Origin: Rhodobacter capsulatus SB 1003
GTDB lineage: Bacteria; Pseudomonadota; Alphaproteobacteria; Rhodobacterales; Rhodobacteraceae
NCBI RefSeq assembly: GCF_000021865.1
Contig: NC_014034.1
Location: forward strand, 1,140,001-1,172,000
DNA length: 32,000 nucleotides
Direction: 5' to 3'
How positions within the stretch are numbered: position 1 is the stretch's first letter; each line of letters opens with the position of its first letter. The notes beneath the pieces are model-generated. The model worked only from the letters and a program-made list of their open reading frames with translations. It did not search any database and was not told the origin of the DNA. Below are positions 1 to 16,090 of this stretch, piece after piece. The position numbers were made by a program, and so were the translations under genes.

Positions 1-70
1 CAGGACCGCGCCGAGGCCGTCCGGGCCGGGGGCCGGGGGCGACAAGGCCCCGGAGCCGGCGCGCCGGACC

Positions 71-562
71 TCAGGCATCGTCGAGTTCATAAAGGAACTC
101 GCCCAGAAGCGCGGCGTAATGCTGCCGGACGGCGGCAATGCGCGCCTGCAATTCGAGCGCCTGACCGTAAAGCTCTGCCGCCGACAGCCCGGCCCCGCCC
201 AGCTTCGCCTGCGGACGCACATCCTGCGCCGGATCGAAGGCTTCGAATTGCGAAATCGCCTCGTCCAGCGTGTCGGCCTGCCAGGCGCGGAACACGTCGC
301 GCTCGTCCACCGAGGAGAAGAAGGTCTTGATCGCCGTCACGAACCCGCCATCGGCGGTGCGGAACAGGTTGATCTCGTACCAGTAGGGCAGATCGGGCGT
401 GAAGCTCATCGCCATGCCCAGTTCCGCGCCGCGGAATTGCAGCGGGCGCGCACCGACGCGGCGCAGGCTGTAATCCAGCATCGAGGGATCTCCATACGGG
501 GCGGTTTCCTCGTAAGCCTGTTGGGGAGCCGCGAATTGCTTGCTTTCCGTCATATAGGCCAT
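71..562 (-). CDS. hypothetical protein, 163 aa; last gene of the pyp operon
   Basis: ATG at 562-560 with GGAGG (rc of 567-571) 4 nt upstream. It starts 16 nt after the stop of the upstream ORF. The sequence looks like a real globular protein, whereas the overlapping + strand ORF (119..1054) is Arg/Pro/Gly-rich antisense junk. No family recognised. Confidence 0.6.
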   Translation of the reverse strand: MAYMTESKQFAAPQQAYEETAPYGDPSMLDYSLRRVGARPLQFRGAELGMAMSFTPDLPYWYEINLFRTADGGFVTAIKTFFSSVDERDVFRAWQADTLDEAISQFEAFDPAQDVRPQAKLGGAGLSAAELYGQALELQARIAAVRQHYAALLGEFLYELDDA

Positions 563-578
563 GATGCCTCCAAGTCTG

Positions 579-1238
579 TCACTGTTGAACCGTGCCCCGC
601 AGATGCGACATCAGCCGCCGCGGCGCTTGGCCGAAGAAGGTTTCCATTGCCCCCCGCTCGGCCTCGCTTGGCGTCAGGCCAACCGGATCGAGCAGCAGGA
701 CCAGAGGATCGAGCCCCGCCAGCAGCCGGGGCAGTTGCGCCAGATCCGTCACCCGCCGCGCCAGATGCATCGGACGGGCGGCCGCGACCCCCTCGATCTC
801 GCGCTGGGCCGCGAGGACAAGGCTGTCGTCGGCGCTCAGATAAAGCGCCAGGTGCTGGCGGACCGTCACCGGGCAGTCTGCCAGCTGCAAATCGGCCGCG
901 TCCGTCTCTTCGAGCAAGGCGGCGCCCAGAAACACGAGCGGGCGCGCGCCGTCCCGACGCAGGCGGATCCGTTCGCGCAGCGCCAAAGGGCAGGTGTCGG
1001 TGTCCCCGGCGTCGGGGGGCGGCGCCGTCACCGGCCCTTGCGCCTGCGGCCTGAGTTCCGGTTCCGGCAGAAGCGGGGCCCCCTGCCGGACCGGCGCCGC
1101 AGCGGCCCTTTCGGGCGGGCGGGCCGGCGTCGGCAGCCTGTCGGATCCCCCGGCCGGGTCCCGCCCCCGACCCGCGCGCCGCAGCTGCAGCAGCGCGGGC
1201 GAGATCGAGACGGAGATGTCGGGCCGGGGTGCGGCCAC
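579..1238 (-). CDS. hypothetical protein, up to 219 aa (GTG start; true start uncertain); shares a conserved core with the 163-aa ORF
   Basis: The frame has high third-position G+C (17/20 and 18/20 in two hand-checked stretches). GTG at 1238-1236 lies 3 nt after the pyp stop (1244-1242). The N-terminal third is Pro/Ala/Arg-rich and the C-terminal part looks globular. The opposite-strand ORF 561..1643 is Arg-rich junk. Confidence 0.5.
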   Translation of the reverse strand: MAAPRPDISVSISPALLQLRRAGRGRDPAGGSDRLPTPARPPERAAAAPVRQGAPLLPEPELRPQAQGPVTAPPPDAGDTDTCPLALRERIRLRRDGARPLVFLGAALLEETDAADLQLADCPVTVRQHLALYLSADDSLVLAAQREIEGVAAARPMHLARRVTDLAQLPRLLAGLDPLVLLLDPVGLTPSEAERGAMETFFGQAPRRLMSHLRGTVQQ

Positions 1239-1241
1239 GGC

Positions 1242-1616
1242 TCAGGCCCGCTTCACGAAGAGCCAGCAGAACTGGCCGTCGGGTTGGGACTTGAGGTGGA
1301 TCTTCACCGCCACTTCGGCGCCCTTGTAATTGAACTTGTAGTCCAGCATCACATTGGCCTGGCCGGTGCGGTTGAATTTCAGGAATTCCCCGTGGAACCG
1401 CTTGCCCTTGGCGCAGGGCGCGATCTCGTTGAAGAAATCGCGGCCGATCACCGTCGAGGGATCGCGGCCCGCGATCAGCCCCTCGGCCTTGTTGTATTTG
1501 GCGATCCGCCCCATGCGGTCGAGAAGCACGGCGCCGAACGGCAGGCTTTCCGCACGCGCGGGCTCGCGCGCCAGGATGTTGTCGATGTCGTTCGTCCCGA
1601 ACGGAATGATTTCCAT
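1242..1616 (-). CDS. pyp: photoactive yellow protein (PAS-fold p-coumaric-acid photoreceptor), 124 aa
   Basis: MEIIPFGTNDIDNIL...YNKAEGLIAGRDP...FFNEIAPCAKG...WLFVKRA aligns along its full length with Halorhodospira PYP as I remember it. Chromophore Cys (APC), Tyr42, Glu46 and Arg52 equivalents are present. ATG at 1616-1614 with GAGGAA upstream. The longer track ORF (to 1811) is an artefactual N-terminal extension. Confidence 0.95.
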   Translation of the reverse strand: MEIIPFGTNDIDNILAREPARAESLPFGAVLLDRMGRIAKYNKAEGLIAGRDPSTVIGRDFFNEIAPCAKGKRFHGEFLKFNRTGQANVMLDYKFNYKGAEVAVKIHLKSQPDGQFCWLFVKRA

Positions 1617-1639
1617 GTTCTTTCCTCGCGCAGGTTGAA

Positions 1640-2068
1640 TTAGTGGCCGCTGGTGTCGACGCCGTTCTCGTTGTCGAGAAAGCTGTCGTTGCGGGTCATG
1701 GACATGTCGTGCACCCGGGTGACGGGATTGCCGTCGAACGTGGCGCAGTGCTTGGCGCGGCCCTCGGGGGCAACCCAGCGGTAGTCGGTCCGGCCCATCG
1801 TCACCACGCATTGCGGGATGATTTCGAACCGTTCCTTGGCGTCGTATTTGACCGAGTCGATCTCGATCTCCGAGGCTTCGCCGAATTCGACGAGCGCCTG
1901 CAGTTCATCGATCTTCGAGTCGACCTCGCGTCTGGCGACGATCCCCACCATCTCGGCGGCCGCCGCCATGACCCATTCCGGGAAGTCGCCCGTCACCCGC
2001 AGGTTCAGGGTGTCGCTACGGAAGGTGTAGCGCCCGTTATCGGTCATCAGCTGTCCAACAATATCCAT
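1640..2068 (-). CDS. hypothetical acidic protein, 142 aa; first gene of the pyp operon
   Basis: ATG at 2068-2066 (MDIVGQLMTDNGRYTF...) with GGAGAGGAG upstream. The TAA stop at 1642-1640 lies 23 nt before the pyp ATG. No family recognised. An alternative start at Met38 is possible. Confidence 0.6.
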   Translation of the reverse strand: MDIVGQLMTDNGRYTFRSDTLNLRVTGDFPEWVMAAAAEMVGIVARREVDSKIDELQALVEFGEASEIEIDSVKYDAKERFEIIPQCVVTMGRTDYRWVAPEGRAKHCATFDGNPVTRVHDMSMTRNDSFLDNENGVDTSGH

Positions 2069-2162
2069 CCGTAGCTCACTCCTCTCCAACTTGCAGGCCC
2101 GCCCTTCGAGGCGACCCAGTCGAACTTGCGGAAAAAGGTGGGCCCAAGGCTTGAACAAATCG

Positions 2163-2186
2163 CTAAAACGCGCGAGCCTGTTTTAG
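2163..2186. promoter_or_regulatory. AT-rich inverted repeat CTAAAAC-N10-GTTTTAG in the divergent promoter region upstream of the pyp operon
   Basis: Arms 2163-2169 and 2180-2186 are exact reverse complements. They lie in the 138-bp gap between the 142-aa ORF (-) and a small + strand ORF. Confidence 0.25.
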
Positions 2187-2206
2187 GCAAATCGAGGAAA
2201 TGGAAA

Positions 2207-2374
2207 ATGGCGGGTTACTCCTGGCAACCCCTCATCAGGCTGACGGTCGTGCCGGACGGGGCGGCGGAGCTGATTTATGTCTTCTCTGATCGCGCGCGCG
2301 CGAGCGAGATGGTCCGTTACCTGTCGGATTTCTTTCCCGGGGCGCAAATGCGGATTTCCGAAACTTTCAACTGA
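2207..2374 (+). CDS. possible small protein, 55 aa
   Basis: ATG at 2207 with AGGAA about 9 nt upstream. It is followed by hairpins and a T-run at 2392-2438. Short, with no recognisable family, so weak. Confidence 0.3.
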   Translation: MAGYSWQPLIRLTVVPDGAAELIYVFSDRARASEMVRYLSDFFPGAQMRISETFN

Positions 2375-2490: not shown

Positions 2491-2943
2491 ATGAGCAAGA
2501 AATCCCGCGCAACCGGCCCTGCAAGGTCCCCCGGTGTCGCAGCTCCGAAGCGCAAGGCGCAGCCCGAGGCGCGGGCCGCGGCCGCGCCTGCCGAGGTGCT
2601 GTGCGCGCTGTGCTGGGATCGCACCGATCCCGCGGCCGGACAGATCCTGCTGTGCCGGGACGCGGCCGGAGGCTTTGCCGGATCGGTCGTCCTGCCCGGG
2701 ATGCAGGCGATGCAGCGCCGTGCCGAGGATCTGGCGACGCTGATCTGCTGGCTTGAAGCGCTGCAGGCCCCCGCCCGTCCGCCGGGCGTCGAGGCGGGCT
2801 GCTCCGCCGAGTGTCTGGCCGAGGATCGGCTGGAGGATCTTCTGCTTCTCGCGGCCAATCGGGCGCTGCAGGACAAGTTTGACCAGTTGCGGGGCGAGGC
2901 GCTTGCGCTCTGGAGCGACATCGAAGGGAAGGATTGCCGATGA
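2491..2943 (+). CDS. hypothetical protein, 150 aa
   Basis: ATG at 2491 (MSKKSRATGPAR...). The stop overlaps the next ORF start in an ATGA (2940-2943). No family recognised. Confidence 0.5.
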   Translation: MSKKSRATGPARSPGVAAPKRKAQPEARAAAAPAEVLCALCWDRTDPAAGQILLCRDAAGGFAGSVVLPGMQAMQRRAEDLATLICWLEALQAPARPPGVEAGCSAECLAEDRLEDLLLLAANRALQDKFDQLRGEALALWSDIEGKDCR

Positions 2944-3875
2944 CCGAGGGGTTCACCGCCTATCGCGCGCGCGCCGCATTCGTGCGCGGGGCGGCGCGCG
3001 ATCATTTGCGCCAGCTGCGCATGGAGCGCATTGCGGCCCGGGAGGCGGCGCGTGCGCCAGAAAGCGGGACCGAGAGCGGGACAGAGCCCGCCCCCGAGCC
3101 CGCAGAGGAGGCCGTCCTTCTCCCCGCGCCGGAGATCGAGGCCGCCGGGACGCCCGCGCCGGAGCCCGCCGTCGCAACTGCCCCGGAGACCGCCGTCGCA
3201 GCGGCCCCGGAGCCGCCCGCACCCGAACCCGCGGCCCTTCCGCCGCCGGCGCAGGCCCGGCCCGGGGTGCCGCTCTCGCCGGGCATGCGCCGGATGCTGC
3301 AGGCGCGCGCCCGGGCGGCGGAGACGGCCGAAGATCCGGTCGCCGAGGCGCCGATGGCGGAGATCCCGGCTGCGGATTGCGTGACGGCGGAGCCCGCGGC
3401 GACGGAATGCCCGGTCGCGCCGGAACGTCCCGCCCTTGCGGCTTTGGAGGGGGCGACCGGGGCGGAAGACCCGTGTTGCGCCGCGCCGGAGCCGCCGTCC
3501 GAGCCCGAGGTCGGCGCGGCCGAAGACGTTGCCCTGCCGGAGGCGCCGATGCCGGACCCGGAGCTCGCCGCCGATGCCGCCGCGGTCCCAAGTGCCGCGG
3601 ATCCCGCGGCGGAGATTTCCGGCGCGCCGTCCGAGACGCACACGCCCTGCGCGAGTGCGGCAGAGGGCGCCGCGGAGGATCGCAGATCGGATCTCGCACG
3701 TCTGCCCGGGGCGGGTCCGGGGCTGATCTGGATGCTGAAGGAATGCGACATCCACCGGCTGGAAGACCTTGCCGCCGCGGATTGCGCCGAATTGACGGCG
3801 CGGATGGGGCTGGCGGGACGGATTCTGGATCTGGGCGGCTGGATCGCTTTCGCGCGCGCGGCCGATCGGCATTAA
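2940..3875 (+). CDS. Pro/Ala/Glu-rich low-complexity protein with a C-terminal helix-hairpin-helix-like module, about 311 aa
   Basis: ATGA start/stop overlap with the upstream ORF. It has a long (A/E/P)n tract (ESGTESGTEPAPEPAEE..., APEPAVATAPETAVAAAPEPPAPEPA). The C-terminus, DLARLPGAGPGLIWMLKECDIHRLEDLAAADCAELTARMGLAGRI, resembles the HhH tail seen on some alphaproteobacterial NuoE/L21-type proteins (from memory). Confidence 0.55.
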   Translation: MTEGFTAYRARAAFVRGAARDHLRQLRMERIAAREAARAPESGTESGTEPAPEPAEEAVLLPAPEIEAAGTPAPEPAVATAPETAVAAAPEPPAPEPAALPPPAQARPGVPLSPGMRRMLQARARAAETAEDPVAEAPMAEIPAADCVTAEPAATECPVAPERPALAALEGATGAEDPCCAAPEPPSEPEVGAAEDVALPEAPMPDPELAADAAAVPSAADPAAEISGAPSETHTPCASAAEGAAEDRRSDLARLPGAGPGLIWMLKECDIHRLEDLAAADCAELTARMGLAGRILDLGGWIAFARAADRH

Positions 3876-3929: not shown

Positions 3930-5525
3930 ATGACCCTGCAGTCACAGACGGCCAAGGACTGCCTCGCGCTGGACGGGGCGCTGACACTTGTCCAATGCGA
4001 GGCCATCGCGACACATCGCAGCCGGATTTCGGTGACCCCCGCGCTGCGCGAGCGCTGCGCGCGGGCCCATGCCCGGCTTGAGCACGCCATCGCCGAGCAG
4101 CGCCACATTTACGGCATCACCACCGGCTTCGGCCCGCTGGCGAACCGTCTGATCGGGGCCGATCAGGGGGCGGAGCTGCAGCAGAACCTGATCTATCATC
4201 TGGCCACCGGCGTCGGGCCGAAACTGAGCTGGGCCGAGGCGCGGGCGTTGATGCTGGCGCGGCTCAACTCGATCCTGCAAGGCGCGTCGGGGGCCTCGCC
4301 GGAGACGATCGACCGGATCGTTGCGGTGCTCAATGCGGGGTTTGCCCCCGAGGTTCCGGCGCAGGGAACGGTGGGCGCCTCGGGCGATCTGACCCCGCTT
4401 GCGCATATGGTGCTGGCGCTGCAGGGACGGGGGCGGATGATCGACCCCTCGGGCCGCGTGCAGGAGGCCGGGGCGGTGATGGATCGGCTCTGCGGCGGTC
4501 CGCTGACGCTGGCGGCCCGTGACGGGCTGGCGCTGGTGAATGGCACCTCGGCGATGACCGCGATTGCGGCCCTGACCGGGGTCGAGGCGGCGCGGGCGAT
4601 CGACGCCGCGCTTCGGCACAGCGCGGTCCTGATGGAGGTCTTGTCCGGTCATGCCGAAGCCTGGCATCCGGCTTTCGCAGAGCTGCGCCCGCATCCGGGG
4701 CAGCTGCGGGCGACCGAGCGGCTGGCGCAGGCGCTGGATGGGGCGGGGCGGGTCTGTCGGACCCTGACCGCGGCGCGGCGGCTGACCGCCGCGGATCTGC
4801 GGCCCGAAGATCATCCGGCGCAGGATGCCTACAGTCTGCGCGTGGTGCCGCAACTGGTCGGCGCGGTCTGGGACACGCTGGACTGGCACGATCGTGTCGT
4901 CACCTGCGAGCTCAATTCCGTCACCGACAATCCGATCTTTCCCGAGGGCTGCGCGGTGCCCGCCCTGCACGGCGGCAATTTCATGGGCGTGCATGTCGCC
5001 CTTGCCTCCGATGCGCTGAACGCGGCGCTGGTGACGCTGGCGGGCCTGGTCGAGCGTCAGATCGCCCGGCTGACCGACGAAAAGCTGAACAAGGGCCTGC
5101 CCGCCTTCCTGCACGGGGGGCAGGCGGGGCTGCAATCGGGCTTCATGGGGGCGCAGGTCACGGCGACGGCGCTTCTGGCGGAAATGCGGGCGAATGCCAC
5201 GCCGGTTTCGGTGCAGTCGCTGTCGACCAATGGCGCCAATCAGGATGTGGTCTCGATGGGAACGATTGCCGCGCGGAGGGCGCGGGCGCAGCTGCTGCCC
5301 CTGTCGCAGATCCAGGCGATCCTGGCGCTTGCCCTTGCCCAGGCGATGGATCTGCTTGACGACCCCGAGGGGCAGGCCGGATGGTCGCTTACGGCGCGGG
5401 ATCTGCGGGACCGGATCCGGGCGGTCTCGCCCGGGCTTCGCGCCGACAGACCGCTTGCCGGGCATATCGAAGCGGTGGCACAGGGTCTGCGTCATCCCTC
5501 CGCCGCCGCCGATCCCCCGGCATGA
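3930..5525 (+). CDS. tal: tyrosine ammonia-lyase (MIO-dependent aromatic amino-acid lyase), 531 aa
   Basis: Full-length HAL/PAL/TAL family. It carries the MIO-forming Ala-Ser-Gly triad (GTVGASGDLTPLAHM) and the His-Leu selectivity pair in LIYHLATG, which is typical of Tyr-specific enzymes. ATG at 3930 with GGGAGAA upstream. Context next to pyp. Confidence 0.95.
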   Translation: MTLQSQTAKDCLALDGALTLVQCEAIATHRSRISVTPALRERCARAHARLEHAIAEQRHIYGITTGFGPLANRLIGADQGAELQQNLIYHLATGVGPKLSWAEARALMLARLNSILQGASGASPETIDRIVAVLNAGFAPEVPAQGTVGASGDLTPLAHMVLALQGRGRMIDPSGRVQEAGAVMDRLCGGPLTLAARDGLALVNGTSAMTAIAALTGVEAARAIDAALRHSAVLMEVLSGHAEAWHPAFAELRPHPGQLRATERLAQALDGAGRVCRTLTAARRLTAADLRPEDHPAQDAYSLRVVPQLVGAVWDTLDWHDRVVTCELNSVTDNPIFPEGCAVPALHGGNFMGVHVALASDALNAALVTLAGLVERQIARLTDEKLNKGLPAFLHGGQAGLQSGFMGAQVTATALLAEMRANATPVSVQSLSTNGANQDVVSMGTIAARRARAQLLPLSQIQAILALALAQAMDLLDDPEGQAGWSLTARDLRDRIRAVSPGLRADRPLAGHIEAVAQGLRHPSAAADPPA

Positions 5526-5534
5526 CGATCCGGA

Positions 5535-5747
5535 TCAGGGGGTCTGCGGATCGACCGTAAGCCCGATGGCCTCGGCATATTTCAGCCAGGTTTCGACCGA
5601 CGCGACGACGGCACGCAGTTCGATCGCCAGCAGTTCGATCCCGACAAGGGAAATCCGGACGAAGGCATCGACAACGATGCCCTTGTCGAGAACACGGTCG
5701 ATGACTTCGGCGATGCTGGCCGAAGCAAGGCTCTTTTCGATGGCCAT
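5535..5747 (-). CDS. gvpA: gas vesicle structural protein GvpA, 70 aa
   Basis: [63 protein letters not shown] is the canonical GvpA signature. ATG at 5747-5745 with GGAGAG upstream. Confidence 0.95.
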
Positions 5748-5956: not shown

Positions 5957-7696
5957 TCAGCCGGTGTGCCGCCATTCCGCCGCGGAGGGATTTTCGTCCC
6001 GCCTGTTCCGGCTTGATTTCCATTCCACCGTTTCGGATGTGGCTTCGTCCAGATGGAATAGAGACATCTTGTTCATCAAGGTGTCGGATTTTTCCAGCAA
6101 TCCTGCCGCGACAACCTGATTTTCCTGCGCCATCTGCCGGTTGTCCCGGGTCAGGCGGTCCATGGCCCCCATCTGCCCGGCCAGTTCCTGCATCGCCACC
6201 GATTGCGCCGCGCATTGCGTGGTGATCCGGCCCATCTGCTCGTGCAATTCCTGCACCGCCGTCTCGACATGGCCGATGGCCTTGCCCGAATCCGTCACCC
6301 GATCGCTGGCCACCTGAATGCTTTTCTCGATCCCGCTGACAAGGCCGGTGATTTCCGTGGCGGCATCGGCGGTCTTGGTCGCAAGCGAGCGCACCTCGTT
6401 CGCGACGATGGTGAAGCCCCGGCCCGCCTCTCCGGCACGGGCGGCCTCGACGGCGGCGTTGAAGCCCAGGATGCGCGATTGCAGGGCGATCGAGTTGATC
6501 AGGCTGGTGAAGCGATGGATCTGGCCGCTGACGGTGCGAATCGCCTCCATCGCGTCCTTGACCGAGCCGACGGCCTGGCCGCTTTCGGTGACCCGCTGCA
6601 GGCTCATTTCGGCGACATGGTTGCCCGCGCTGGCGGTCTTGGCCGTGGTTTCGATCTTGCGCGCGGTCGCGTCGATCGTCTGCAGGGTCTGCGACAGCGT
6701 GTGGCTTTGTTCGTCCGAGCGGCCCTGCAGCACCTCGGCCGAGGCCGCCACCTGGCCCGAGATCTGGCTCACCTCCTGCGCTTCGGCGGAAATCGCCGTC
6801 ACGAGGCTCTTCAGCCCCGCGACCATCTGGTTGAAGTCTTCGCGCAGCGGTTCCAGCTCGATGTTGAACGGATCCTCGATCCGGGCTTCCAGCTCGCCCT
6901 GTTTCATCAGCGCGATCGCCCGGGACAGGGCGTTCAGCGCGGTTTTGCGTTCGGTCACGTCGGTGGCATAAAGCACGATCCGGTCGACGCAGCCCGCCGC
7001 ATCCATCACCGGATCGAGCGAGCCCTGAATGAAGATGTCGCGCCCGGATTTCGACCGCAGCTGCAATTCCCCGACAAAGGGCAGACCGGCATCGCGGTCG
7101 GACCAGAATTCGGCATAATCCGCATCGCTCAGGATCGCGTCATCCTGCAGCCGGCGCGCGTCTTCGCAGACGAGTTCGCTCGGGTCGTAGCCCAGTGCAT
7201 TGCAGAAAACAGCGTTGGCGGAGAGGATCATGCCCCCGGCCATGAATTCCGCGGTCAGCTGCGTGTTCTCGATCGCGGCAAGCCGGGTGCGGATGTCGAA
7301 TTCCCGCCGCTGCGCATGGCTGACGTCAAGGGCGGTGATCGTCACGCCGCGGAACGTCCCGGCGTCGCAGCGGGTCGGGGTCAGGGCGGCCTTCAGCCAG
7401 AAGTTGCGCCCGTTCGGCAGACGTATTTCAAAACGCTGGGAAAATCCCTCGCCCTCCGAAAGGCCCTGCAAACGGGATTCGGCCTCAAGCGCGAAATCGC
7501 AGTGCGGGCCGATCAGGTCCAGGAATTTTTGGCCGATGATTTCCGCCGCGTCGATCGACCATTCTTCAAGCGCATGATCCGAACAGAAATCCACGATCCC
7601 CTCTGCATTCAAATGCAGCACGAGGACGGAGGCCATGACGGAACCGATGAGACCATCGGGAAGCGGGGGCTGCGTCTGAATATCGGTCTCGGTCAT
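5957..7696 (-). CDS. soluble methyl-accepting chemotaxis protein with two N-terminal PAS domains, 579 aa
   Basis: The C-terminal half carries the highly conserved MCP signalling hairpin (SLINSIALQSRILGFNAAVEAARAGEAGRGFTIVANEVRSLA). The N-terminal half has two PAS-like repeats and no hydrophobic transmembrane segments. ATG at 7696-7694 (MTETDIQ). Confidence 0.9.
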   Translation of the reverse strand: MTETDIQTQPPLPDGLIGSVMASVLVLHLNAEGIVDFCSDHALEEWSIDAAEIIGQKFLDLIGPHCDFALEAESRLQGLSEGEGFSQRFEIRLPNGRNFWLKAALTPTRCDAGTFRGVTITALDVSHAQRREFDIRTRLAAIENTQLTAEFMAGGMILSANAVFCNALGYDPSELVCEDARRLQDDAILSDADYAEFWSDRDAGLPFVGELQLRSKSGRDIFIQGSLDPVMDAAGCVDRIVLYATDVTERKTALNALSRAIALMKQGELEARIEDPFNIELEPLREDFNQMVAGLKSLVTAISAEAQEVSQISGQVAASAEVLQGRSDEQSHTLSQTLQTIDATARKIETTAKTASAGNHVAEMSLQRVTESGQAVGSVKDAMEAIRTVSGQIHRFTSLINSIALQSRILGFNAAVEAARAGEAGRGFTIVANEVRSLATKTADAATEITGLVSGIEKSIQVASDRVTDSGKAIGHVETAVQELHEQMGRITTQCAAQSVAMQELAGQMGAMDRLTRDNRQMAQENQVVAAGLLEKSDTLMNKMSLFHLDEATSETVEWKSSRNRRDENPSAAEWRHTG

Positions 7697-9865: not shown

Positions 9866-10839
9866 TCGCGCTTGGTCTTGGCCTCGGGCTTGCCGCCAAT
9901 GGCGGTCCGGCCCTCCGGCGATATGCCGTGAATGGTGTCGCCCCCGTCGCGGTGCTTGATTTCGAACGGCATTTCCTGTCGCATCCGCTTGCCCTGACAC
10001 GGGCCACGAGTGCGACCTATGCCGATGCGCTGCGGGCCGTTCAGACGGCCCCCGCCGATACGCCCCGCTATGATTACAGCACCGGTAAGCGGGCGCTGCT
10101 GCTTGAGGCATCCGCGACCAACCTGCTGCCCAACAGCGCGCAGTTCGAGGCCGCCTCCTGGGGCAAAACCCGGGCCAGCGTGCTGGCAAATGCCGCGCTG
10201 GCCCCGAATGGCACGATGACGGCCGACAAGCTTGTCGAAGATACCAGCAACAACAGCCATTTCGTCGCCCGCACCGGGACGCAGATCGCGGCGGGGACCT
10301 CCGTGACCGCCTCGATCTTCGTCAAGGCGGCCGAGCGTCGGTGGTTTGCCCTGGTGACCGCCGACAGCGCGAATGCCTTCCGCACCACCTATTTCGACCT
10401 GCAGACGGGGACGCTCGGGGTGGTGTCGCAGGGCGCGGCGGGGCATGTGGCGCAGATCGTGGCGGCGGGGAATGGCTGGTATCGCTGCAGCGTGACGCAG
10501 ACGCAGGCGGCGAGCGGCAATTTCAACTTTTACCCGAGCGTTGCCAGTGCGAATGGCGCGACCTCTTACCCGGGGGATGGCGCCTCGGGGCTTTATCTTT
10601 GGGGCGCGCAGCTGGAGGCCGGCGCCGCGGTCAGTTCGGTCATTCCGACCGAGGCCGCGGCGGTGACCCGGGCGGCGGATCTGGCCAGCGTGGCGGTGGC
10701 GGCGGGAAGCTATGATCTCCGCCGGGTCGATGCCGCGGGAACGGCCGTCACCAAGGGGGTCGCGCATCCGGGCGGGGCGCTGACGATCGGCGCCGGAAGC
10801 CTCTACCTGCTCAGCCTTTTTCCGGCCGGGGCGCTCTGA
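9862..10839 (+). CDS. ghsB: gene-transfer-agent / phage head-spike fibre protein (Rcc01080-type), 325 aa
   Basis: ATGA overlap at 9862-9865. The conserved fibre-domain pattern is TNLLPNSAQFEAASWGKTRASVLANAALAPNGTMTADKLVED...GWYRCSV...LYLWGAQLE, typical of phage/GTA carbohydrate-binding spike fibres. Confidence 0.7.
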   Translation: MIALGLGLGLAANGGPALRRYAVNGVAPVAVLDFERHFLSHPLALTRATSATYADALRAVQTAPADTPRYDYSTGKRALLLEASATNLLPNSAQFEAASWGKTRASVLANAALAPNGTMTADKLVEDTSNNSHFVARTGTQIAAGTSVTASIFVKAAERRWFALVTADSANAFRTTYFDLQTGTLGVVSQGAAGHVAQIVAAGNGWYRCSVTQTQAASGNFNFYPSVASANGATSYPGDGASGLYLWGAQLEAGAAVSSVIPTEAAAVTRAADLASVAVAAGSYDLRRVDAAGTAVTKGVAHPGGALTIGAGSLYLLSLFPAGAL

Positions 10840-10850
10840 CCGGATCGAGC

Positions 10851-10871
10851 GGGGCGTTGCGCAAACGCCCC
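10851..10871 (+). terminator. hairpin 12 nt after the ghsB stop; candidate terminator with a weak U-tract
   Basis: GGGGCGTT (10851-10858) / AACGCCCC (10864-10871) with a 5-nt loop, followed by CTTGCGGTTC. A second hairpin (GGGCCCGG...CCGGGCCC) lies at about 10940-10965. Confidence 0.45.
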
Positions 10872-11254
10872 TTGCGGTTCTGGCAGAGCGACCGGCTGGC
10901 CGCGGCGGGAGGCCCCGGCGCGCGGGTGTCTTGCACAGCAGGGCCCGGTCGCAAGGCCGGGCCCTGCGGCGGATCCGTCATGGATGCTGCCTTGTTTTGC
11001 CGGGGCACAAGTGCTAAATGGCGAGTGAATTGATTCCGCTCGCCTTCTGGCTGTATCGGGGCGTGGGCGGGGTTTCTCTTGCCCCGGTTTCGGCGTTTGC
11101 GAGCACTTTGGTATATCCTTCTCGGATCGGCTGAAAATTATGCATGTGGTGGGAATTTGATGTCCATTTCGGAACAATCGGCGCTGCACGCCCCTTGCCG
11201 CGGGCCTGAAGACACCCCCGTTCCGGGTGAGGGCGCTTCCGGCAGGGTGTCCGG

Positions 11255-12436
11255 ATGAAAGTGGTTCTGGTCTGCAACACCGACGGCGCGCTTGCCAATT
11301 TCCGCGCCCCCCTGATCCGTGCGCTGGTGGCGGCGGGGCATGAGGTCGTCACGATCAGCGGATCGGGCGGCTATATCGACACTTTGCGGGCGATGGGGGC
11401 GCGGCCGATCGTCGTCGAATTTTCCCGCCACTCCGCCGCGCCGCTGCGCAATCTTGGCCTGCTGCGCGATCTGCTGCGGCTCTTGCGGCAGGAACGCCCC
11501 GATGTGGTGCACTGCTTCACCCACAAGGCGGTGATCTTTGGCAGCCTGGCCGCGCGTCTGGCCGGGGGTTCGAAGATCGTGGCGACCGTCACCGGGCTTG
11601 GAACGCTTTTCGTGCGCGGCGATGCGAAGACACGGCTGCTGAAGACCCTGCTGGTCTGGCAGTATCGGCTGTTGCTGCGGCCCGATCAGCCGGTGCTGTT
11701 TCAGAACCCCGACGATCTGCAAGAGATGGTGTCGCTGCGCGCCGTCCGCCGGAAACAGGCGGTTCTGACCTATGGCTCGGGGATCGATCTGGCGGAATAT
11801 GCGCTGCCGGACGCGCGATCCGTGGCCGAGGCCCGGCAGCAACTGGCGCAAGAGACCGGCCAGGACATGTCGAACCGGATCATCGCCTTGTTTCCGGCGC
11901 GCGGCGTTCCGGAAAAGGGGTTCAAGGAATTCTATGCGGCGGCCCGGACCCTGTCGGAACGCTTCCCCGGTCGCTTCGCCTTCGTCCATATCGGGTTGAT
12001 CGACACCGAGGCCTCCGGCGCGCTGAGTGCCGAGGAGGTCAGGGCCAATGCGCTTGCGCAGGGGGTCCATTACCTTGGCTACAAGATCAACGCCCGCGAC
12101 TACATGACCGCCGCGGATGTCGTCGTGCTGCCGTCCTACTACCGCGAGGGCGTCCCGAGATCGCTGATCGAGGCGCTGGCGCTGGGGAAATGCCTGGTCA
12201 CCACCGACATGCCCGGCTGCCGGGAAACGCTGATCGACGGCTGGAACGGGTTTTTGTGCGGCACGCGCGATGCCGCCTCGGTTGTTTCGGCGCTGGAACG
12301 GATCGACGCGGATTTCAGAGAGACGGCGCGGCCACGGTCCCGCCAATTGTGCGAAGACCGGTTCGACGTGCGCCGGTTGAACGCCCTGACCTTCGGGCTT
12401 TACGGCCTGCCCGCGCCCGAAGCGGCGCAGGGCTGA
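11255..12436 (+). CDS. glycosyltransferase family 4 (GT-B), capsule locus gene 1
   Basis: N-terminal MKVVLVCNTDGALANFRAPLIRALVAAGHEV...VVHCFTHKAVIFGSLAA and C-terminal VVVLPSYYREGVPRSLIEALALGKCLVTTDMPGCRE (E-x7-E region) are typical of GT4 enzymes. Confidence 0.85.
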   Translation: MKVVLVCNTDGALANFRAPLIRALVAAGHEVVTISGSGGYIDTLRAMGARPIVVEFSRHSAAPLRNLGLLRDLLRLLRQERPDVVHCFTHKAVIFGSLAARLAGGSKIVATVTGLGTLFVRGDAKTRLLKTLLVWQYRLLLRPDQPVLFQNPDDLQEMVSLRAVRRKQAVLTYGSGIDLAEYALPDARSVAEARQQLAQETGQDMSNRIIALFPARGVPEKGFKEFYAAARTLSERFPGRFAFVHIGLIDTEASGALSAEEVRANALAQGVHYLGYKINARDYMTAADVVVLPSYYREGVPRSLIEALALGKCLVTTDMPGCRETLIDGWNGFLCGTRDAASVVSALERIDADFRETARPRSRQLCEDRFDVRRLNALTFGLYGLPAPEAAQG

Positions 12437-12446
12437 GGGGGCGGGC

Positions 12447-13640
12447 ATGGGCACATCCGGCAGCAGATCGACGCGGCGCTTGCGGCTGGCGATCATCGGA
12501 TCGGTCGGGGTTCCCGGTCGCTATGGCGGTTTCGAGACGCTGGTGGAAAATCTTGCCACCCTTGCGCCGGGCCTGGCGCCGGACATGGAGCTGACGATCT
12601 ATTGCAGCGCACGCGCCTATCCGCAGCGCGCGGCCAGTTTCCACGGCGCGAAGCTGCGCTATCTGCCGCTGAACGCCAATGGCGCGCAAAGCATTCCCTA
12701 TGACATCCTGTCCCTGGCCTGGGCGGTCTTGTCGCGCGTCGATGTGGTGCTGGTGCTCGGGGTTTCGGGGGCGGTGGCAATTCCGCTGTTTCGCCGTCTT
12801 GGCGGGGCCAGGATCGTGACCAATGTCGATGGCATCGAATGGAAGCGCGAAAAATGGCGCGGTCTTTCGCGCTGGATCCTGCGGCTTTCGGAACGGCTGG
12901 CGGCCCGGCATTCGCATGCGGTGATTGCCGACAACGACCATATCGCGGCGCATATCCGCGAAAGCTACGGGGTGGACTGCGAAACCATCGCCTATGGCGG
13001 CGATCATGCGCTGGCGCCCGAAGCCGATCCCGCCCGTCTTGCGGATTTGCCCGCGGGCTATGCGCTGTCGATTTGCCGGATCGAGCCGGAAAACAATGTC
13101 CGCATGATCCTCGAAGCCTTTGCGCAAAGGCCGGGGGTGCCGCTGGTGCTGATCGGCAATTGGGCGGCCAGCGATTATGGGCGCGCGCTGCGCGACAGGT
13201 TCGGAACTCTGCGGCATCTTTTCTTGCTGGATCCGATTTATGATCTGGGCCAGCTCAAGGCGATCAGAGAGCAGGCGCGGTTTTACGTGCATGGCCATTC
13301 CGCGGGCGGCACCAATCCCTCGCTGGTCGAGGCCATGCAGTTTCACGAAGACATCCTGGCCTTCGACTGCGGTTTCAACCGGGCGACGACGGAAAATGGC
13401 GCGTTGTTTTTCCAGAACTGCGATGACCTTGGGGCCTTGATCGATGCGCTGCGCGCGGGAACCCGCGGCTGCGGCGCGGGGGCGATGAAGGAAATTGCCG
13501 ATCGGCGATATGCCTGGTCCGTCGTGGCACAGCAGTATTTCCGGCTGGTGCGCCGTATGTGGGACGAAAAGCGGGCCGGGATCACCTCGGGTCCCCAAAA
13601 AGGATACCCGCGTCGCGCCGACGGGATCGAAAAGGAATGA
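12447..13640 (+). CDS. glycosyltransferase with DUF1972-type N-terminus (rhamnosyl/glycosyl transferase-like)
   Basis: [23 protein letters not shown]...[12 protein letters not shown]... is the DUF1972 signature, followed by a GT-B C-terminal half. It starts 10 nt after the previous stop. Confidence 0.8.
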
Positions 13641-14701
13641 CCGTGCCGCATCAGGAGAATGCGCCTTTGACGGATCCGAAAACCGGGGCCGGCCGCAGGA
13701 TTTTGCTGACCGGGACCGCCGGTTTCATCGGCTTTCACCTGGCCCGGCAGCTTCTGGCCGAGGGCTGGCGGGTGCAGGGCTATGACGGGATGACGGATTA
13801 TTACGATGTCGCGCTCAAGCATGACCGGCATGCGATCTTGCGCGCGCATCCGAATTTCACCGCGACCGAGGCGATGCTGGAAGATCAGCCCCGCTTCGAT
13901 GCCGTGGCCGACGCCTTCCGCCCCGAGGTGATCGTGCATCTGGCCGCCCAGGCCGGGGTCCGCTACAGCCTGGAAAATCCGCGCGCCTATCTCGACAGCA
14001 ACGTGATCGGCACCTTCTCCGTGATCGAGGCGGCGCGGCGGCTGCAGGTGAAACATCTGCTGATCGCCTCGACCTCCTCGGTTTACGGCGCCAACCCGAA
14101 GATGCCCTTTGCCGAGACCGACAAGGCCGACACCCAGCTGACGATCTATGCGGCGACGAAAAAGGCCAATGAAAGCATGGCCCATGCCTATGCGCATCTG
14201 TGGAACCTGCCGGTGACGATGTTCCGCTTCTTCACCGTTTACGGGCCCTGGGGGCGGCCGGATCTGGCGCTTTACAAATTCGTCGATGCGATCCTCGATG
14301 ACCGGCCGATCGACATTTACAACCACGGCGAGATGTATCGCGACTTCACCTATATCGACGACCTCGTGCGCGGGATCCGGCTTCTGATCGATGCGGTGCC
14401 GGTGCGGCCCGAGGATGGTATCGTGCCCGCGGGCGACAGCCTGTCGCCGGTGGCGCCGTTCCGCATCGTCAATATCGGCAATTCCGACAAGGTGCGGCTG
14501 CTGGATTTCGTCGAGGCGATCGAGGCCTGTCTGGGCAAGACGGCGCTCCGCAATTACCTGCCGATGCAAAAGGGTGATGTGCCCGCGACCTTTGCCGATG
14601 CGACGCTGCTGCACAGCCTGACCGGCTACCGGCCGCAGACTGATTTCCGCGAGGGCATCGCCCGGTTCGTCGACTGGTATCGCGGGTATTACAAGAAATG
14701 A
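13637..14701 (+). CDS. NAD-dependent nucleotide-sugar epimerase, UDP-glucuronate 4-epimerase-like (SDR)
   Basis: GTAGFIGFH Rossmann motif, catalytic YAATK, and [12 protein letters not shown], which is characteristic of the UDP-GlcA 4-epimerase group. ATGA overlap with the upstream gene at 13637-13640. Confidence 0.9.
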
Positions 14702-14893
14702 CCGGGCGGCGGGCAGATCCTGCGGCCTTCTTGAAGGGCGGGAACCGCGCGGAAGGCCGCAAGCATCCGCGCGGCCTCGCCGCCGAAACGGGTCCGGGGC
14801 GGTGATGCCCGCGGCGGGGGGGCCTCTCGGCGCGCGAAGGGCGGGGCAGGGCGGGTCCGTGCCCGCGCCAGACTATACGGGGGATGAGGGATC

Positions 14894-16090
14894 GTGTCCG
14901 GTTCTGCGGCGCTTTTGAAGATCGTGCGATTTGGAATGATCCGGGTGGTCCCGGGTCTGTTCAACTTTGCGCTGATCCCCTGGCTGCTGGTCACGCTTGG
15001 TCCGGCCGCCTACGGGGTCTATTCGACCTGGCTTGGCTATGCGGCGCTGGTGGCCAATACGGTGGCCGCGATCGTGACGCAGCCGATGTTCCGCTACCTG
15101 CCGCATCGCCCCGAGGAGCGCGAGCTGTTCACCGGCTTCGCCCTGGTGGCGGCGCTTGCGGCCGCGGCGCTGAGCGGCGGGATCTTCCTGCATCTTGGCG
15201 TTTCGACGAGCTTTGCCCTTGGTTTTGCGGCCTTTTCCTTTGGCACGGTGCTTGGCTCCTCGGTCGGCGTCGATTTCGTCCTGAGCCAGCGGGTGATGCG
15301 TCTGGCCAGCTTCGAGGCGCTGCGCATCCTGTCGATCCTGGTCGTGCTGGCGCTGCCGCTGCTGCGCGGGCTGCCGCTGCGGACCGAGGATGTCGTCCTT
15401 GGCCTTGCGGTGTCGAACCTGCTGCCGATCCTGCTGCTGGCGGGGCGGCCCCGGCTGGCGCTGCCCTCACGCGAGTGGCTTGTCCGGACCCTGTCTTATG
15501 GCGCGAAATCGGCGGCCTGGCTCATGATGGCGGGGCTGCCGATGGTCAGCGCCAAGACGATCCTGATGCAGGCCATGCCCGAACATGCCTTTGGCGCCTA
15601 TACCGCGGTGGCGGACCTGACCTATCGCGGCTTCGCGCTGGCCAATGCGGCGCTGATGATGTGGGCCTTTCCGCTGCTGTCGGCGCAATTCGACGCGGGC
15701 GAGGTGGCCGAGACCCGGCGCACCCTGCGGTTCACGCTGCTGGTCTATACCGGTCTGGGCGCAACGGCGGTGGCGGTGCTTCTGGGCGGGATCAACCTGT
15801 TTCGGATTGACGCGGCGGCGCTGCCCGGCGGGATGATCGGGGTGGCGCTGATCACGCTGGCCAGTTTCGGCTGGCACGGCATGTCGATCGCGCACAAGCC
15901 CTTCGAGATGACGCAGCGGACAACGCAGATGGCGGCGCTGATGGCGCTGGGGGTGGCGGGCTTTTACGCAAGCACCTTCGGGCTGATCCGGCTGGCCGGG
16001 TTCGAGGCGTTTTACGTGGTGATCCTGAGCCTGATCGCCGTCGCCCTTGTCTATGGCGGCATCGGGCTGAGCCAGAAACTGGAGCGGTAG
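14894..16090 (+). CDS. polysaccharide flippase-like polytopic membrane protein (Wzx/MOP-type)
   Basis: Multi-spanning hydrophobic protein whose N-terminus is typical of polysaccharide biosynthesis flippases. Position next to the polymerase gene. GTG start at 14894; an ATG at 14936 is also possible. Confidence 0.7.
   Translation: MSGSAALLKIVRFGMIRVVPGLFNFALIPWLLVTLGPAAYGVYSTWLGYAALVANTVAAIVTQPMFRYLPHRPEERELFTGFALVAALAAAALSGGIFLHLGVSTSFALGFAAFSFGTVLGSSVGVDFVLSQRVMRLASFEALRILSILVVLALPLLRGLPLRTEDVVLGLAVSNLLPILLLAGRPRLALPSREWLVRTLSYGAKSAAWLMMAGLPMVSAKTILMQAMPEHAFGAYTAVADLTYRGFALANAALMMWAFPLLSAQFDAGEVAETRRTLRFTLLVYTGLGATAVAVLLGGINLFRIDAAALPGGMIGVALITLASFGWHGMSIAHKPFEMTQRTTQMAALMALGVAGFYASTFGLIRLAGFEAFYVVILSLIAVALVYGGIGLSQKLER

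What the first reader, a model, noticed from the sequence alone, without database searches (positions are those of the whole stretch)
71..2068. pyp is embedded in a tightly packed four-gene operon with three proteins of no recognisable family
Seen in sequence:
- The minus-strand order is orf142, then 23 nt, pyp, then 3 nt, orf219, then 16 nt, orf163.
- orf142, pyp and orf163 have Shine-Dalgarno sequences. There is no room for internal promoters or terminators.

Established knowledge: no physiological signalling partner of a stand-alone PYP has been firmly identified in any organism.

Inference: proteins obligatorily co-transcribed, and probably translationally coupled, with the photoreceptor are prime candidates for its downstream partners or for chromophore loading. 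None of the three resembles a kinase, GGDEF/EAL protein, STAS protein, Gvp protein or CoA ligase as far as I can tell by eye.
Basis: partly seen in the sequence, partly recalled or inferred. Interest (0 to 1): 0.75.

Follow-up and report, generated by a model that had tools for sequence, protein, structure and literature searches.

The report
PYP embedded in gas-vesicle accessory genes
The blue-light sensor PYP of Rhodobacter capsulatus sits in a conserved operon with one unknown protein found only beside pyp and two paralogous unknown proteins that belong to gas-vesicle gene clusters, which gives concrete candidates for PYP's long-sought signalling partners and points to buoyancy as the output.

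Summary
The coordinates, gaps and Shine-Dalgarno sites are correct, but the operon is cut by the window edge. A fifth gene, the p-coumaroyl-CoA ligase pcl, starts at 90/78(-), overlaps the orf163 stop and runs off the left end.

None of the three ORFs matches Pfam, NCBIfam, PADLOC or PDB sequences, and the two that were modelled (orf142, orf163) have no significant Foldseek match. They are still not three unrelated orphans.

- **orf142** is a small alphaproteobacterial family. pyp lies immediately downstream in 66 of 68 species-level loci.
- **orf219 and orf163** are paralogues of each other and of the divergent gene orf150. This unnamed "PAR" family has at least 357 representatives at 50% identity.
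- **In other lineages** three PAR genes, then gvpA, then an orf311-like gene form a unit inside gas-vesicle clusters. That unit occurs with pyp inserted, with no pyp at all, or beside an output-less bacteriophytochrome.

My best reading is that PAR proteins are non-enzymatic gas-vesicle accessory or regulatory proteins, and that PYP, with pcl and orf142, makes them respond to light. The comparative evidence is strong. The mechanism is inferred, not shown.

The parts
1..90 (-). 5' end of pcl, the p-coumaroyl-CoA ligase (421 aa in full genomes) and fifth gene of the operon. It starts at ATG 90 (or ATG 78), overlaps the orf163 stop codon and runs off the window.
   Evidence: Translation of 90..1 gives MNSTMPEVRRAGSGALSPPAPGPDGLGAVL. 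In L001-L006 the gene called at the corresponding position (10473-11738, starting 20 nt before the orf163 stop) is 421 aa and hits PF00501 AMP-binding and PF13193. The script translated L001:10473-11738 and printed the same 30 N-terminal residues.
71..562 (-). orf163, called 'orfC' here: a PAR-family protein and the paralogue always retained next to pcl. It has a disordered N-terminus, a five-stranded beta-sheet with one helix, and a long C-terminal helix.
   Evidence: 20 homologue clusters by word search and 357 representatives by exhaustive HMMER. AlphaFold2 pLDDT 83.8. No Pfam, NCBIfam or PDB-sequence hit. Present in about 64 of 65 orf142-anchored loci.
579..1238 (-). orf219, called 'orfB' here: a fast-evolving PAR-family paralogue with a Pro/Ala/Arg-rich N-terminal half. 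It has a GTG start 3 nt after the pyp stop.
   Evidence: Positional homologues of 113-198 aa in L007, L008, L009, L011 and L012; absent in L013. hhalign against the orf163 family gives E = 1.6e-5. The N-terminal motif 'IS..L..LRR' is conserved in four lineages, which supports this start. An orfB-type gene is present in about 40-51 of about 65-70 loci.
1242..1616 (-). pyp, photoactive yellow protein (124 aa).
   Evidence: TIGR02373 at E = 6.4e-60, above its cut-off. PAS fold by Pfam. Cys69 is conserved.
1640..2068 (-). orf142: an uncharacterised family strictly linked to pyp. It has an invariant Cys87 in a 'PQC' motif, an 'EWV..AAAE' helix and a conserved C-terminal tail (HDMSLTRNDSFL) modelled with low confidence.
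   Evidence: 46 homologue clusters at 41-64% identity. pyp lies directly downstream in 66 of 68 loci. AlphaFold2 pLDDT 83.7. No significant Foldseek match in PDB or BFVD. Unrelated to the PAR family.
2069..2206 (.). 138-bp divergent control region between orf142 and orf55. It contains a perfect 7-bp inverted repeat, CTAAAAC-N10-GTTTTAG, at 2163..2186.
   Evidence: the repeat finder I6. The repeat is not conserved outside R. capsulatus. No sigma-70 consensus promoter was found.
2207..2374 (+). orf55: a conserved small protein and first gene of the divergent unit. An upstream TTG at 2126 would give 82 aa.
   Evidence: tblastn and phmmer hits in L007, L009 and L011 and in L011, L014, L017, L018, L020, L023, L029, L031 and L036. 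Called as 55 aa or 78-82 aa in R. capsulatus genomes.
2491..2943 (+). orf150: the third PAR-family paralogue. The R. capsulatus copy has lost the RRxGxxPLxFxG motif.
   Evidence: Alignment A7. hhalign against the orf163 family gives 95% probability, E = 3.5e-8, over 137 columns. Present upstream of orf142 in 36 of 70 loci.
2940..3875 (+). orf311: a basic N-terminal helix, an acidic Pro/Ala/Glu-rich linker and a conserved C-terminal domain of about 65 aa that looks like a helix-hairpin-helix. Its ATG overlaps the orf150 stop (ATGA).
   Evidence: Alignment A8. Sub-threshold HHH_5, IMS_HHH_1 and DUF4332 hits in four homologues. Weak similarity to NusA AR2. An orf311-like gene follows gvpA in L084, L085, L087-L089, L094, L095, L098, L100 and L105.
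3930..5525 (+). tal, tyrosine ammonia-lyase, which supplies p-coumarate. It is the last gene of the divergent unit.
   Evidence: PF00221 at E = 2.6e-146. Called as 531 aa in L001-L006.
5535..5747 (-). gvpA, the major gas-vesicle protein (70 aa), convergent with tal.
   Evidence: PF00741 at E = 2.3e-16. In other lineages gvpA directly follows the PAR triad.
5957..7696 (-). PAS-PAS-HAMP methyl-accepting chemotaxis protein upstream of gvpA. It recurs as a neighbour of the module in other lineages.
   Evidence: MCPsignal, PAS_9, PAS_4 and HAMP hits. MCP, with or without CheW, lies next to the module in L009-L011, L018, L019, L065-L067, L087, L089, L100 and L107.

Best explanation
The locus is a light-input module attached to gas-vesicle genes.

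Shown:
- The transcription unit on the minus strand is orf142-pyp-orf219-orf163-pcl. The gvp cluster lies just beyond the window. A divergent unit, orf55-orf150-orf311-tal, faces gvpA.
- orf219, orf163 and orf150 are paralogues of one unnamed family, called PAR here. Elsewhere this family forms a 'three PAR genes - gvpA - orf311-like gene' unit inside gas-vesicle clusters.
- pyp is found inserted into or next to that unit in different gene orders. Other copies of the unit have no pyp, and one locus pairs a PAR gene with an output-less bacteriophytochrome.
- orf142 occurs only immediately upstream of pyp.

Inferred:
- PAR proteins are non-enzymatic binding or scaffold proteins. They probably form hetero-oligomers and act on gvpA, either on its expression (possibly by binding nucleic acid) or on assembly of the protein.
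- Holo-PYP is made in place from TAL-derived p-coumarate activated by pcl. It binds a PAR protein, most likely orfC (orf163), in a light-dependent way.
- orf142 is a lineage-specific PYP partner or adaptor, possibly acting through its conserved flexible C-terminal tail.
- The physiological output would be control of buoyancy by blue/UV-A light.
For: - The fifth gene pcl and the adjacent gvp cluster are seen in complete genomes.
- The order orf142-pyp-(orfB)-orfC-pcl is conserved in 7 lineages from protein look-ups and in 70 species-level loci. pyp follows orf142 in 66 of 68 loci.
- gvp genes are present in 55 of 70 loci, and gvpN starts less than 1.2 kb after pcl on the same strand in 32.
- Gene gaps are short or overlapping across about 70 loci.
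- Paralogy is supported by hhalign: E = 1.6e-5, 3.5e-8 and 2e-5.
- PAR triad + gvpA + orf311-like units occur without pyp (L084, L094, L095, L102, L105) and with pyp inserted (L085, L087-L090, L099, L100).
- In L105 a PAR gene sits in an operon with a PAS2-GAF-PHY bacteriophytochrome that has no output domain.
- Modules containing PAR, pyp and pcl occur with no gvp in view (L013/L030, L015, L016, L033, L035, L041, L107). This ties PAR proteins to PYP itself and not only to gvp.
- Across the PAR superfamily only two Gly and one Trp are near-invariant, which argues against catalysis.
- The orfC model is confident. Its only structural echo is a beta4-alpha unit like the PUR repeat, which binds nucleic acid.
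- The literature places gvp genes under CtrA, RegA and FnrL control in Rhodobacter and Cereibacter, and had already noted the linkage of pyp and gvp.
Against: - There is no experimental or structural evidence for any PYP-PAR or PYP-orf142 contact. AlphaFold-Multimer could not be run.
- The PUR-like match is weak (E = 0.03, about 62 residues), and a beta-meander plus helix is a common arrangement.
- PAR triads exist with no photoreceptor within about 8 kb (L095), so PYP is dispensable for whatever they do.
- Some pyp modules have no gvp genes within 10 kb.
- From my own recollection, not checked here, gas vesicles have not been reported in laboratory-grown R. capsulatus.
- One-to-one orthology between orf150/orf219/orf163 and triad positions 1-3 could not be resolved.
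- Co-transcription is inferred from spacing only.
Confidence: 0.5

Rival explanations
1. The PAR proteins (orf219, orf163, orf150) and orf311 are purely gas-vesicle structural or assembly factors. On this reading pyp, pcl and orf142 are only co-located or co-regulated with the gvp regulon, and PYP signals to something else.
For: PAR triad + gvpA + orf311-like units occur in gvp clusters that lack pyp and pcl. gvp genes are present in 55 of 70 module loci. The triad always lies immediately upstream of gvpA in the non-Rhodobacterales clusters.
Against: PAR genes stay with pyp and pcl where no gvp gene is in view (L013/L030, L015, L016, L033, L035, L041, L107). pyp sits between PAR genes, not beside the cluster, in two different arrangements. 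A PAR gene also pairs with an output-less bacteriophytochrome. There is no homology to any Gvp family.
Confidence: 0.2
2. The unknown ORFs are chromophore-maturation accessories. orf163 would work with pcl, and orf142 would use its invariant Cys87 as an acyl carrier or transferase to load p-coumarate onto apo-PYP Cys69.
For: The orfC-pcl junction is the tightest in the operon: median gap 5 nt, 40% overlapping, and 8-20 nt of overlap in this window. Cys87 is invariant in 44 orf142 homologues. orf142, orfC and pcl are the three genes that always accompany pyp in the minimal module.
Against: PAR triads occur without pyp or pcl. The PAR superfamily has no invariant polar or catalytic residues. pyp+pcl loci of the L085, L087-L090 and L107 type have no orf142. 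According to the literature summarised in PMC12826048, TAL and pCL have demonstrated activities and the resulting p-coumaroyl-CoA reacts with apo-PYP directly. From my own knowledge of Kyndt et al. 2003, co-expressing TAL and pCL is enough to make holo-PYP in E. coli.
Confidence: 0.12
3. PYP signals to the neighbouring PAS-MCP/CheW chemotaxis proteins to give phototaxis, with orf142 and the PAR proteins acting as adaptors. Gas vesicles would then be a parallel motility trait in the same genomic island.
For: A PAS-MCP lies next to gvpA in this window. MCP, with or without CheW, lies between pcl and gvpN or next to the module in L009-L011, L018, L019, L065-L067, L087, L089, L100 and L107. PMC9664959 proposes PYP-to-chemoreceptor signalling in other PYP clades.
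Against: An MCP is present in only about a quarter of the loci, whereas gvp genes are in about 80%. The MCP is split in some R. capsulatus strains while the module stays intact. These MCPs carry their own PAS sensor domains.
Confidence: 0.1
4. One or more of the ORFs, especially the low-complexity N-terminal half of orf219, is a high-GC artefact and not a gene.
For: The genome is 66.5% GC and full of spurious long ORFs. The word-based search with orf219 found only R. capsulatus hits. In some strains it is called shorter, at 150 or 112 aa.
Against: In-frame GC3 is 0.84. Positional homologues with a shared core and a shared N-terminal motif exist in at least five lineages. There is profile-level homology to orf163 and orf150. 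orf142 and orf163 have dozens to hundreds of homologues.
Confidence: 0.03

Closest known systems
Halorhodospira halophila pyp-pcl-tal operon (PYP with its chromophore-biosynthesis genes)
   Same: pyp is co-transcribed with a p-coumaroyl-CoA ligase, and a tyrosine ammonia-lyase is nearby (PMC12826048).
   Different: Here one conserved gene of unknown function precedes pyp (orf142) and two lie between pyp and pcl (orf219, orf163). tal sits in a divergent unit with three more conserved unknown genes. The whole region is joined to a gas-vesicle cluster.
The pyp-gvp linkage already described for R. capsulatus SB1003 and Loktanella sp. SE-62 (Kyndt et al. 2004, as cited in PMC3646047)
   Same: It is the same locus and the same idea that PYP may control gas vesicles.
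   Different: In the literature I could read, the flanking ORFs are not analysed. The two large PYP surveys either list them as 'hypothetical' or do not mention them. Kyndt 2004 and the Kort papers could not be read, so they may name these ORFs.
Stand-alone photoreceptors that act through dedicated non-enzymatic partner proteins (BLUF PixD-PixE, AppA-PpsR); cited from my own knowledge
   Same: A small sensor with no output domain is encoded next to small partner proteins that carry the output.
   Different: There is no homology. The partner here is an unnamed beta-sheet plus helix family, the proposed target is gas vesicles, and no interaction has been demonstrated.
Regulators encoded inside gvp clusters (haloarchaeal GvpD/GvpE, Serratia GvrA/B/C); cited from my own knowledge
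   Same: These are non-structural genes inside gas-vesicle clusters, positioned to control gvpA.
   Different: There is no sequence or domain similarity: no AAA, bZIP-like, sigma-54-activator or response-regulator domains were found.
PUR-alpha repeat / Whirly-like beta4-alpha fold (B. burgdorferi Pur-alpha, PDB 3nm7)
   Same: It is the best structural match of the orf163 model: Foldseek probability 0.98, target-normalised TM-score 0.54, rmsd 3.3 A over about 62 residues.
   Different: E = 0.03. There is no sequence similarity, only the sheet and first helix are covered, and nucleic-acid binding has not been tested.
NCBIfam TIGR04342 'EXLDI protein' (uncharacterised)
   Same: Recurrent weak matches to the N-terminal hairpin region in 4 of 67 PAR members and in the fourth PAR gene of L105.
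   Different: The scores are 16-17 bits against a cut-off of 32, the window proteins themselves do not match, and the function of that family is also unknown.

Membership tests
Photoactive yellow protein (TIGR02373), for the gene at 1242..1616 | Full-length match above the curated cut-off, and the chromophore-binding Cys69 with Tyr42, Glu46 and Arg52 | tested here: met
   200.7 bits against a cut-off of 143, E = 6.4e-60. C69, Y42, E46 and R52 align with H. halophila PYP, and position 50 is Ala.
4-coumarate-CoA ligase / AMP-binding enzymes, for the fifth gene | PF00501 AMP-binding domain plus the PF13193 C-terminal domain | tested here: met
   Precomputed Pfam hits on the 421-aa product in L001-L006. 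Only its first 30 codons lie in the window. Substrate specificity was not tested.
Known gas-vesicle protein families (GvpA/J/M PF00741, GvpF/L PF06386, GvpG PF05120, GvpK PF05121, GvpO PF05800, GvpN AAA_5, GvpH HSP20), for orf142, orf219 and orf163 | A profile match to any Gvp family | tested here: not met
   No Pfam or NCBIfam hits for the window proteins, for 67 PAR members or for 44 orf142 members in Pfam. Neighbouring true gvp genes are detected by the same libraries.
Canonical signalling output domains (histidine kinase, GGDEF/EAL, STAS, response regulator, MCP), for orf142, orf219 and orf163 | A Pfam or NCBIfam domain match | tested here: not met
   No hits. The only one is a far-sub-threshold Rv3143 response-regulator hit for orf142 at 15.5 bits against a cut-off of 200.
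PUR-alpha / Whirly-like nucleic-acid-binding fold, for orf163 | A significant structural superposition of a beta-beta-beta-beta-alpha repeat, and nucleic-acid binding | tested here: inconclusive
   Foldseek probability 0.98 but E = 0.03, TM-score 0.54 on a 75-residue target. No match by sequence profile. Binding cannot be tested with these tools.
EXLDI protein (TIGR04342), for the PAR family | A score above the curated cut-off of 32 bits | tested here: not met
   The best scores are 16-17 bits, in a minority of distant members. The window proteins have no hit.
Helix-hairpin-helix domains (HHH_5, DUF4332, NusA AR2), for the orf311 C-terminus | A profile match above threshold | tested here: inconclusive
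   Consistent but sub-threshold hits in four homologues (E = 0.005-0.2) and to NusA AR2 (E = 0.4-0.8). The window copy has no hit at E < 0.01.
Anti-phage defence systems (PADLOC) | A match to any defence-protein model | tested here: not met
   No hits for any of the six unknown proteins.

The most novel reading that the evidence does not exclude
PAR proteins would be a new family of photoreceptor-coupled output adaptors. They would bind stand-alone light sensors, both PYP and output-less bacteriophytochromes. They would act directly on GvpA or on nascent gas vesicles, or on gvpA mRNA or DNA. That would give bacteria post-transcriptional, light-gated control of buoyancy. orf142 would be the first dedicated PYP-binding partner. 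This would answer the question, open for about 30 years, of how a single-domain PYP signals.
Probability: 0.25. Interest if true: 0.85.

Novelty: new variant of a known kind. Interest (0 to 1): 0.68.

Why it matters
PYP is a textbook model photoreceptor, yet the signalling chain downstream of it is still unknown; the 2025 survey (PMC12826048) calls this 'an important gap in knowledge'. Two large surveys, in 2022 and 2025, looked for partners among annotated domains and passed over the 'hypothetical' neighbours.

This analysis supplies the following:
- a protein family (orf142) that is found essentially only next to pyp;
- a sizable unnamed paralogous family (PAR) that links three things: gvpA, PYP and an output-less bacteriophytochrome;
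- a defined candidate output, gas vesicles, in organisms that can be manipulated genetically (R. capsulatus, and C. sphaeroides strains that make gas vesicles).

It also identifies a conserved, previously unnamed component of proteobacterial gas-vesicle clusters: three PAR genes, then gvpA, then an orf311-like (HhH-like) gene. That is relevant to engineering gas vesicles as acoustic reporters, including possible optical control.

Tried and rejected
- **Family libraries.** Pfam, NCBIfam and PADLOC scans of the window proteins and of whole family alignments gave nothing above threshold.
- **PDB sequence profiles.** Searches with the orf142, orf163-family, PAR-superfamily and orf311 profiles gave nothing significant.
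- **Foldseek.** Nothing with E <= 0.001 for orf163 against PDB, or for orf142 against PDB and BFVD.
- **orf219 word search.** It was swamped by low-complexity words and found only R. capsulatus proteins. I recovered homologues by position instead.
- **The search for related loci** could not derive a search pattern from the broad PAR alignments A9 and A10. A five-sequence subfamily alignment worked.
- **orf142 as a diverged PAR paralogue** is rejected: hhalign probability 0.2%.
- **The palindrome CTAAAAC-N10-GTTTTAG as a conserved operator** is rejected beyond R. capsulatus.
- **CtrA and FNR sites upstream of orf142.** CtrA-like sites are enriched in some lineages but absent here, and the background used was biased towards coding DNA. 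FNR sites are not enriched.
- **One-to-one orthology** of orf150, orf219 and orf163 with triad positions 1-3 is unresolved.
- **Papers.** Kyndt 2004 and Kort 1996 are not held in the library. A search for 'EXLDI' found nothing relevant.


Full report
**Observation.** The window is Rhodobacter capsulatus DNA. orf163 is identical to proteins in six NCBI assemblies, and a contig named R. capsulatus SP108 matches orf142 at 99%. On the minus strand I confirm orf142 (2068..1640), a 23-nt gap, pyp (1616..1242), a 3-nt gap, orf219 (GTG, 1238..579), a 16-nt gap and orf163 (562..71). Shine-Dalgarno-like sequences precede orf142, pyp and orf163. pyp is a true PYP: TIGR02373 at E = 6e-60, with Cys69 present. 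In-frame GC3 of 0.78-0.84 and conserved homologues show that the ORFs are genes. Terminator-like hairpins are no more frequent than in shuffled sequence.

**The operon is cut by the window edge.** In complete genomes a 421-aa AMP-binding CoA ligase (pcl) starts 20 nt before the orf163 stop. A gas-vesicle cluster (gvpK ... gvpN) follows, convergent with it. The pcl start codon lies inside the window, at ATG 90 or ATG 78 on the minus strand. The unit is therefore at least orf142-pyp-orf219-orf163-pcl.

On the other side of a 138-bp divergent region lie orf55, orf150, orf311 and tal on the plus strand. They face gvpA (5535..5747, minus) and a PAS-MCP.

**Curated libraries find nothing.** orf142, orf219 and orf163 have no hit above threshold in Pfam, NCBIfam, PADLOC or PDB sequences. 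This also holds when 67 and 44 family members are scanned one by one. AlphaFold2 models are confident, with pLDDT about 84. orf142 has no significant Foldseek match in PDB or BFVD. The best match for orf163 is a weak beta4-alpha resemblance to the PUR repeat of B. burgdorferi Pur-alpha: probability 0.98, E = 0.03, TM-score 0.54 over about 62 residues.

**Two of the three ORFs are paralogues.** orf219 and orf163 share a core, the motif LRRxGxRPLxFxG followed by a beta-sheet and a helix (hhalign E = 1.6e-5). Both are homologous to the orf150-like proteins encoded across the divergent promoter (E = 3.5e-8 over 137 columns, and 2e-5). I call this family PAR. An exhaustive HMMER search with the orf163 profile finds 357 representatives at 50% identity, 136 of them at E <= 1e-10. 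The ten diverse representatives whose clusters I looked up are all unnamed hypotheticals. Across the superfamily only two glycines and one tryptophan are near-invariant, which argues for a binding or scaffold role and against catalysis. orf142 is unrelated to PAR.

**orf142 is strictly linked to pyp.** Its family has 46 clusters, all hypothetical. A scan of one genome per GTDB species returned 70 loci, all Alphaproteobacteria. Most are Rhodobacterales, with some Hyphomicrobiales, Caulobacterales and Parvularculaceae. HMM annotation of six-frame ORFs shows pyp directly downstream in 66 of the 68 loci with room. The two exceptions (L031, L083) are deletion scars that run from orf142 into an MCP fragment. 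An orfC-type PAR gene and pcl follow in about 64 of 65 loci, and a second PAR gene (orfB) in roughly 40-51. gvp genes are in 55 of 70 loci, and in 32 gvpN starts within 1.2 kb of the end of pcl on the same strand. Packing is tight everywhere: median gaps are 28, 19, 12 and 5 nt, and 35-40% of the orfB-orfC and orfC-pcl junctions overlap.

**The PAR family reaches beyond PYP.** I looked up contexts for distant representatives and ran a metagenome scan. These show a recurrent unit of three PAR genes, then gvpA, then an orf311-like gene, inside gas-vesicle clusters. The unit appears in several forms:
- with no pyp, pcl or orf142 in view (L084, L094, L095, L102, L105, plus several short contigs);
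- with pyp inserted after the first PAR gene and pcl divergent (L085, L087-L090, L099);
- with pyp-pcl-MCP upstream (L100).

In L105 a fourth PAR gene sits in an operon with a PAS2-GAF-PHY bacteriophytochrome that lacks an output domain, next to heme oxygenase and a bilin reductase.

Conversely, PAR + pyp + pcl modules occur with no gvp gene in view. These are the minimal orf142-pyp-orfC-pcl loci such as L013/L030, L015 (Cereibacter johrii), L016, L033, L035 and L041, and also L107, which reads PAR-pcl-PAR-pyp-TAL-MCP. PAR genes thus keep company both with gvpA and with stand-alone photoreceptors.

**Other conserved neighbours.** orf311 has a conserved basic N-terminal helix, an acidic low-complexity linker and a C-terminal domain that looks like a helix-hairpin-helix, but only at sub-threshold scores. 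orf55 is a conserved small protein.

**Interpretation.** Shown:
- gene order, spacing and paralogy;
- the co-occurrence statistics;
- absence from curated families.

Inferred:
- the PAR proteins are non-enzymatic accessory or regulatory components acting on gvpA expression or assembly;
- PYP, supplied with chromophore by tal and pcl, makes them light-responsive;
- orf142 is a lineage-specific PYP partner.

I put this at about 0.5. The rivals are a purely structural gas-vesicle role with no PYP contact (0.2), chromophore-maturation accessories (0.12), adaptors towards the neighbouring MCP/CheW system (0.1) and spurious ORFs (0.03).

The maturation idea is weakened in three ways. PAR triads occur without pyp or pcl. 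The superfamily has no catalytic-type conservation. Published work, as summarised in PMC12826048, reports that TAL and pCL have the required activities and that the resulting p-coumaroyl-CoA reacts with apo-PYP.

**Literature.** The proximity of pyp to the gvp cluster in R. capsulatus and in a Loktanella strain has been noted, citing Kyndt 2004 (PMC3646047). gvp genes belong to the CtrA, RegA and FnrL regulons in Rhodobacter and Cereibacter. The two large PYP surveys catalogue annotated neighbours (pCL, TAL, GGDEF/EAL, kinases, MCP). One draws the hypothetical neighbours in white without analysing them, and the other never uses the word 'hypothetical' (PMC9664959, PMC12826048). I could not read Kyndt 2004 or the Kort papers, so earlier naming of these ORFs cannot be excluded.

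**Verdict.** The finding is a new variant of a known kind, a stand-alone photoreceptor with dedicated partner genes, built from two protein families that I found described in no curated library or accessible paper. It makes the PYP-partner question directly testable. Interest is 0.68.

Noticed in passing
window 2163-2186: A perfect 7-bp inverted repeat, CTAAAAC-N10-GTTTTAG, lies in the 138-bp divergent region between orf142 and orf55. It is a candidate operator, but it is conserved only in R. capsulatus (5 of 77 fuzzy hits against about 1% background).
   Followed up: yes
L032, L034, L040, L043, L045, L050 and others, 100-230 nt upstream of orf142: CtrA-like TTAA-N7-TTAA sites (up to 1 mismatch) occur in 20 of 76 upstream regions against 2.6% of background windows. 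That fits the published CtrA control of gvp genes. There is no such site in the R. capsulatus window, and the background was mostly coding DNA.
   Followed up: partly
L105:11379-16791 (minus strand): An operon-like run of bacteriophytochrome (605 aa), STAS protein, heme oxygenase, output-less bacteriophytochrome (507 aa), a 110-aa coiled-coil protein, a PAR-family protein (181 aa) and a bilin reductase lies next to a PAR triad, gvpA and a gvp cluster. It looks like a phytochrome counterpart of the PYP module.
   Followed up: partly
L084:2956-5889, L085:1712-3646, L105:4794-7907: A large ORF of 644-1037 aa with no Pfam hit sits between gvpK and the PAR triad in the non-Rhodobacterales gvp clusters. 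It may be another unnamed component of these clusters.
   Followed up: no
window 5957-7696 (-) and L001/L003: The PAS-PAS-HAMP-MCP upstream of gvpA is intact here (579 aa) but split into two ORFs in some R. capsulatus assemblies (381+184 aa, 434+95 aa). orf219 is also called shorter in two strains (150 and 112 aa). This could be strain-level decay or assembly error.
   Followed up: no
L031:9977-12438 and L083: These two loci keep orf311-like, orf150-like and orf142 genes (L031 also has orf55), but orf142 runs directly into an MCP signalling-domain fragment, followed in L031 by a CheW-like gene. This looks like a deletion of pyp through pcl and the front of the MCP.
   Followed up: partly
window 20426-21250 (-): A LuxR-family regulator with an autoinducer-binding domain lies about 18 kb from the pyp module. 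Quorum sensing feeds into CtrA in related species, so it could be relevant, but it was not examined.
   Followed up: no
window 11231-19368 (+): A polysaccharide-biosynthesis cluster: GT4 glycosyltransferases, a DUF1972 glycosyltransferase, an NAD-dependent epimerase/dehydratase and a 719-aa GT2-GT1 fusion. It is followed by an Opp-type ABC transporter, an M17 aminopeptidase and a GntR-aminotransferase regulator. These are ordinary neighbours.
   Followed up: no
PAR family members P0195 and L105:11379-11924: There are recurrent sub-threshold matches (16-17 bits, cut-off 32) between the PAR N-terminal hairpin region and NCBIfam TIGR04342 'EXLDI protein', another uncharacterised family. They may be distantly related.
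   Followed up: partly
P0077 (350 aa), P0082 (300 aa): Two representatives of the PAR family are about double length and have two matched stretches. They may be tandem fusions of two paralogues, which would fit hetero-oligomerisation.
   Followed up: no
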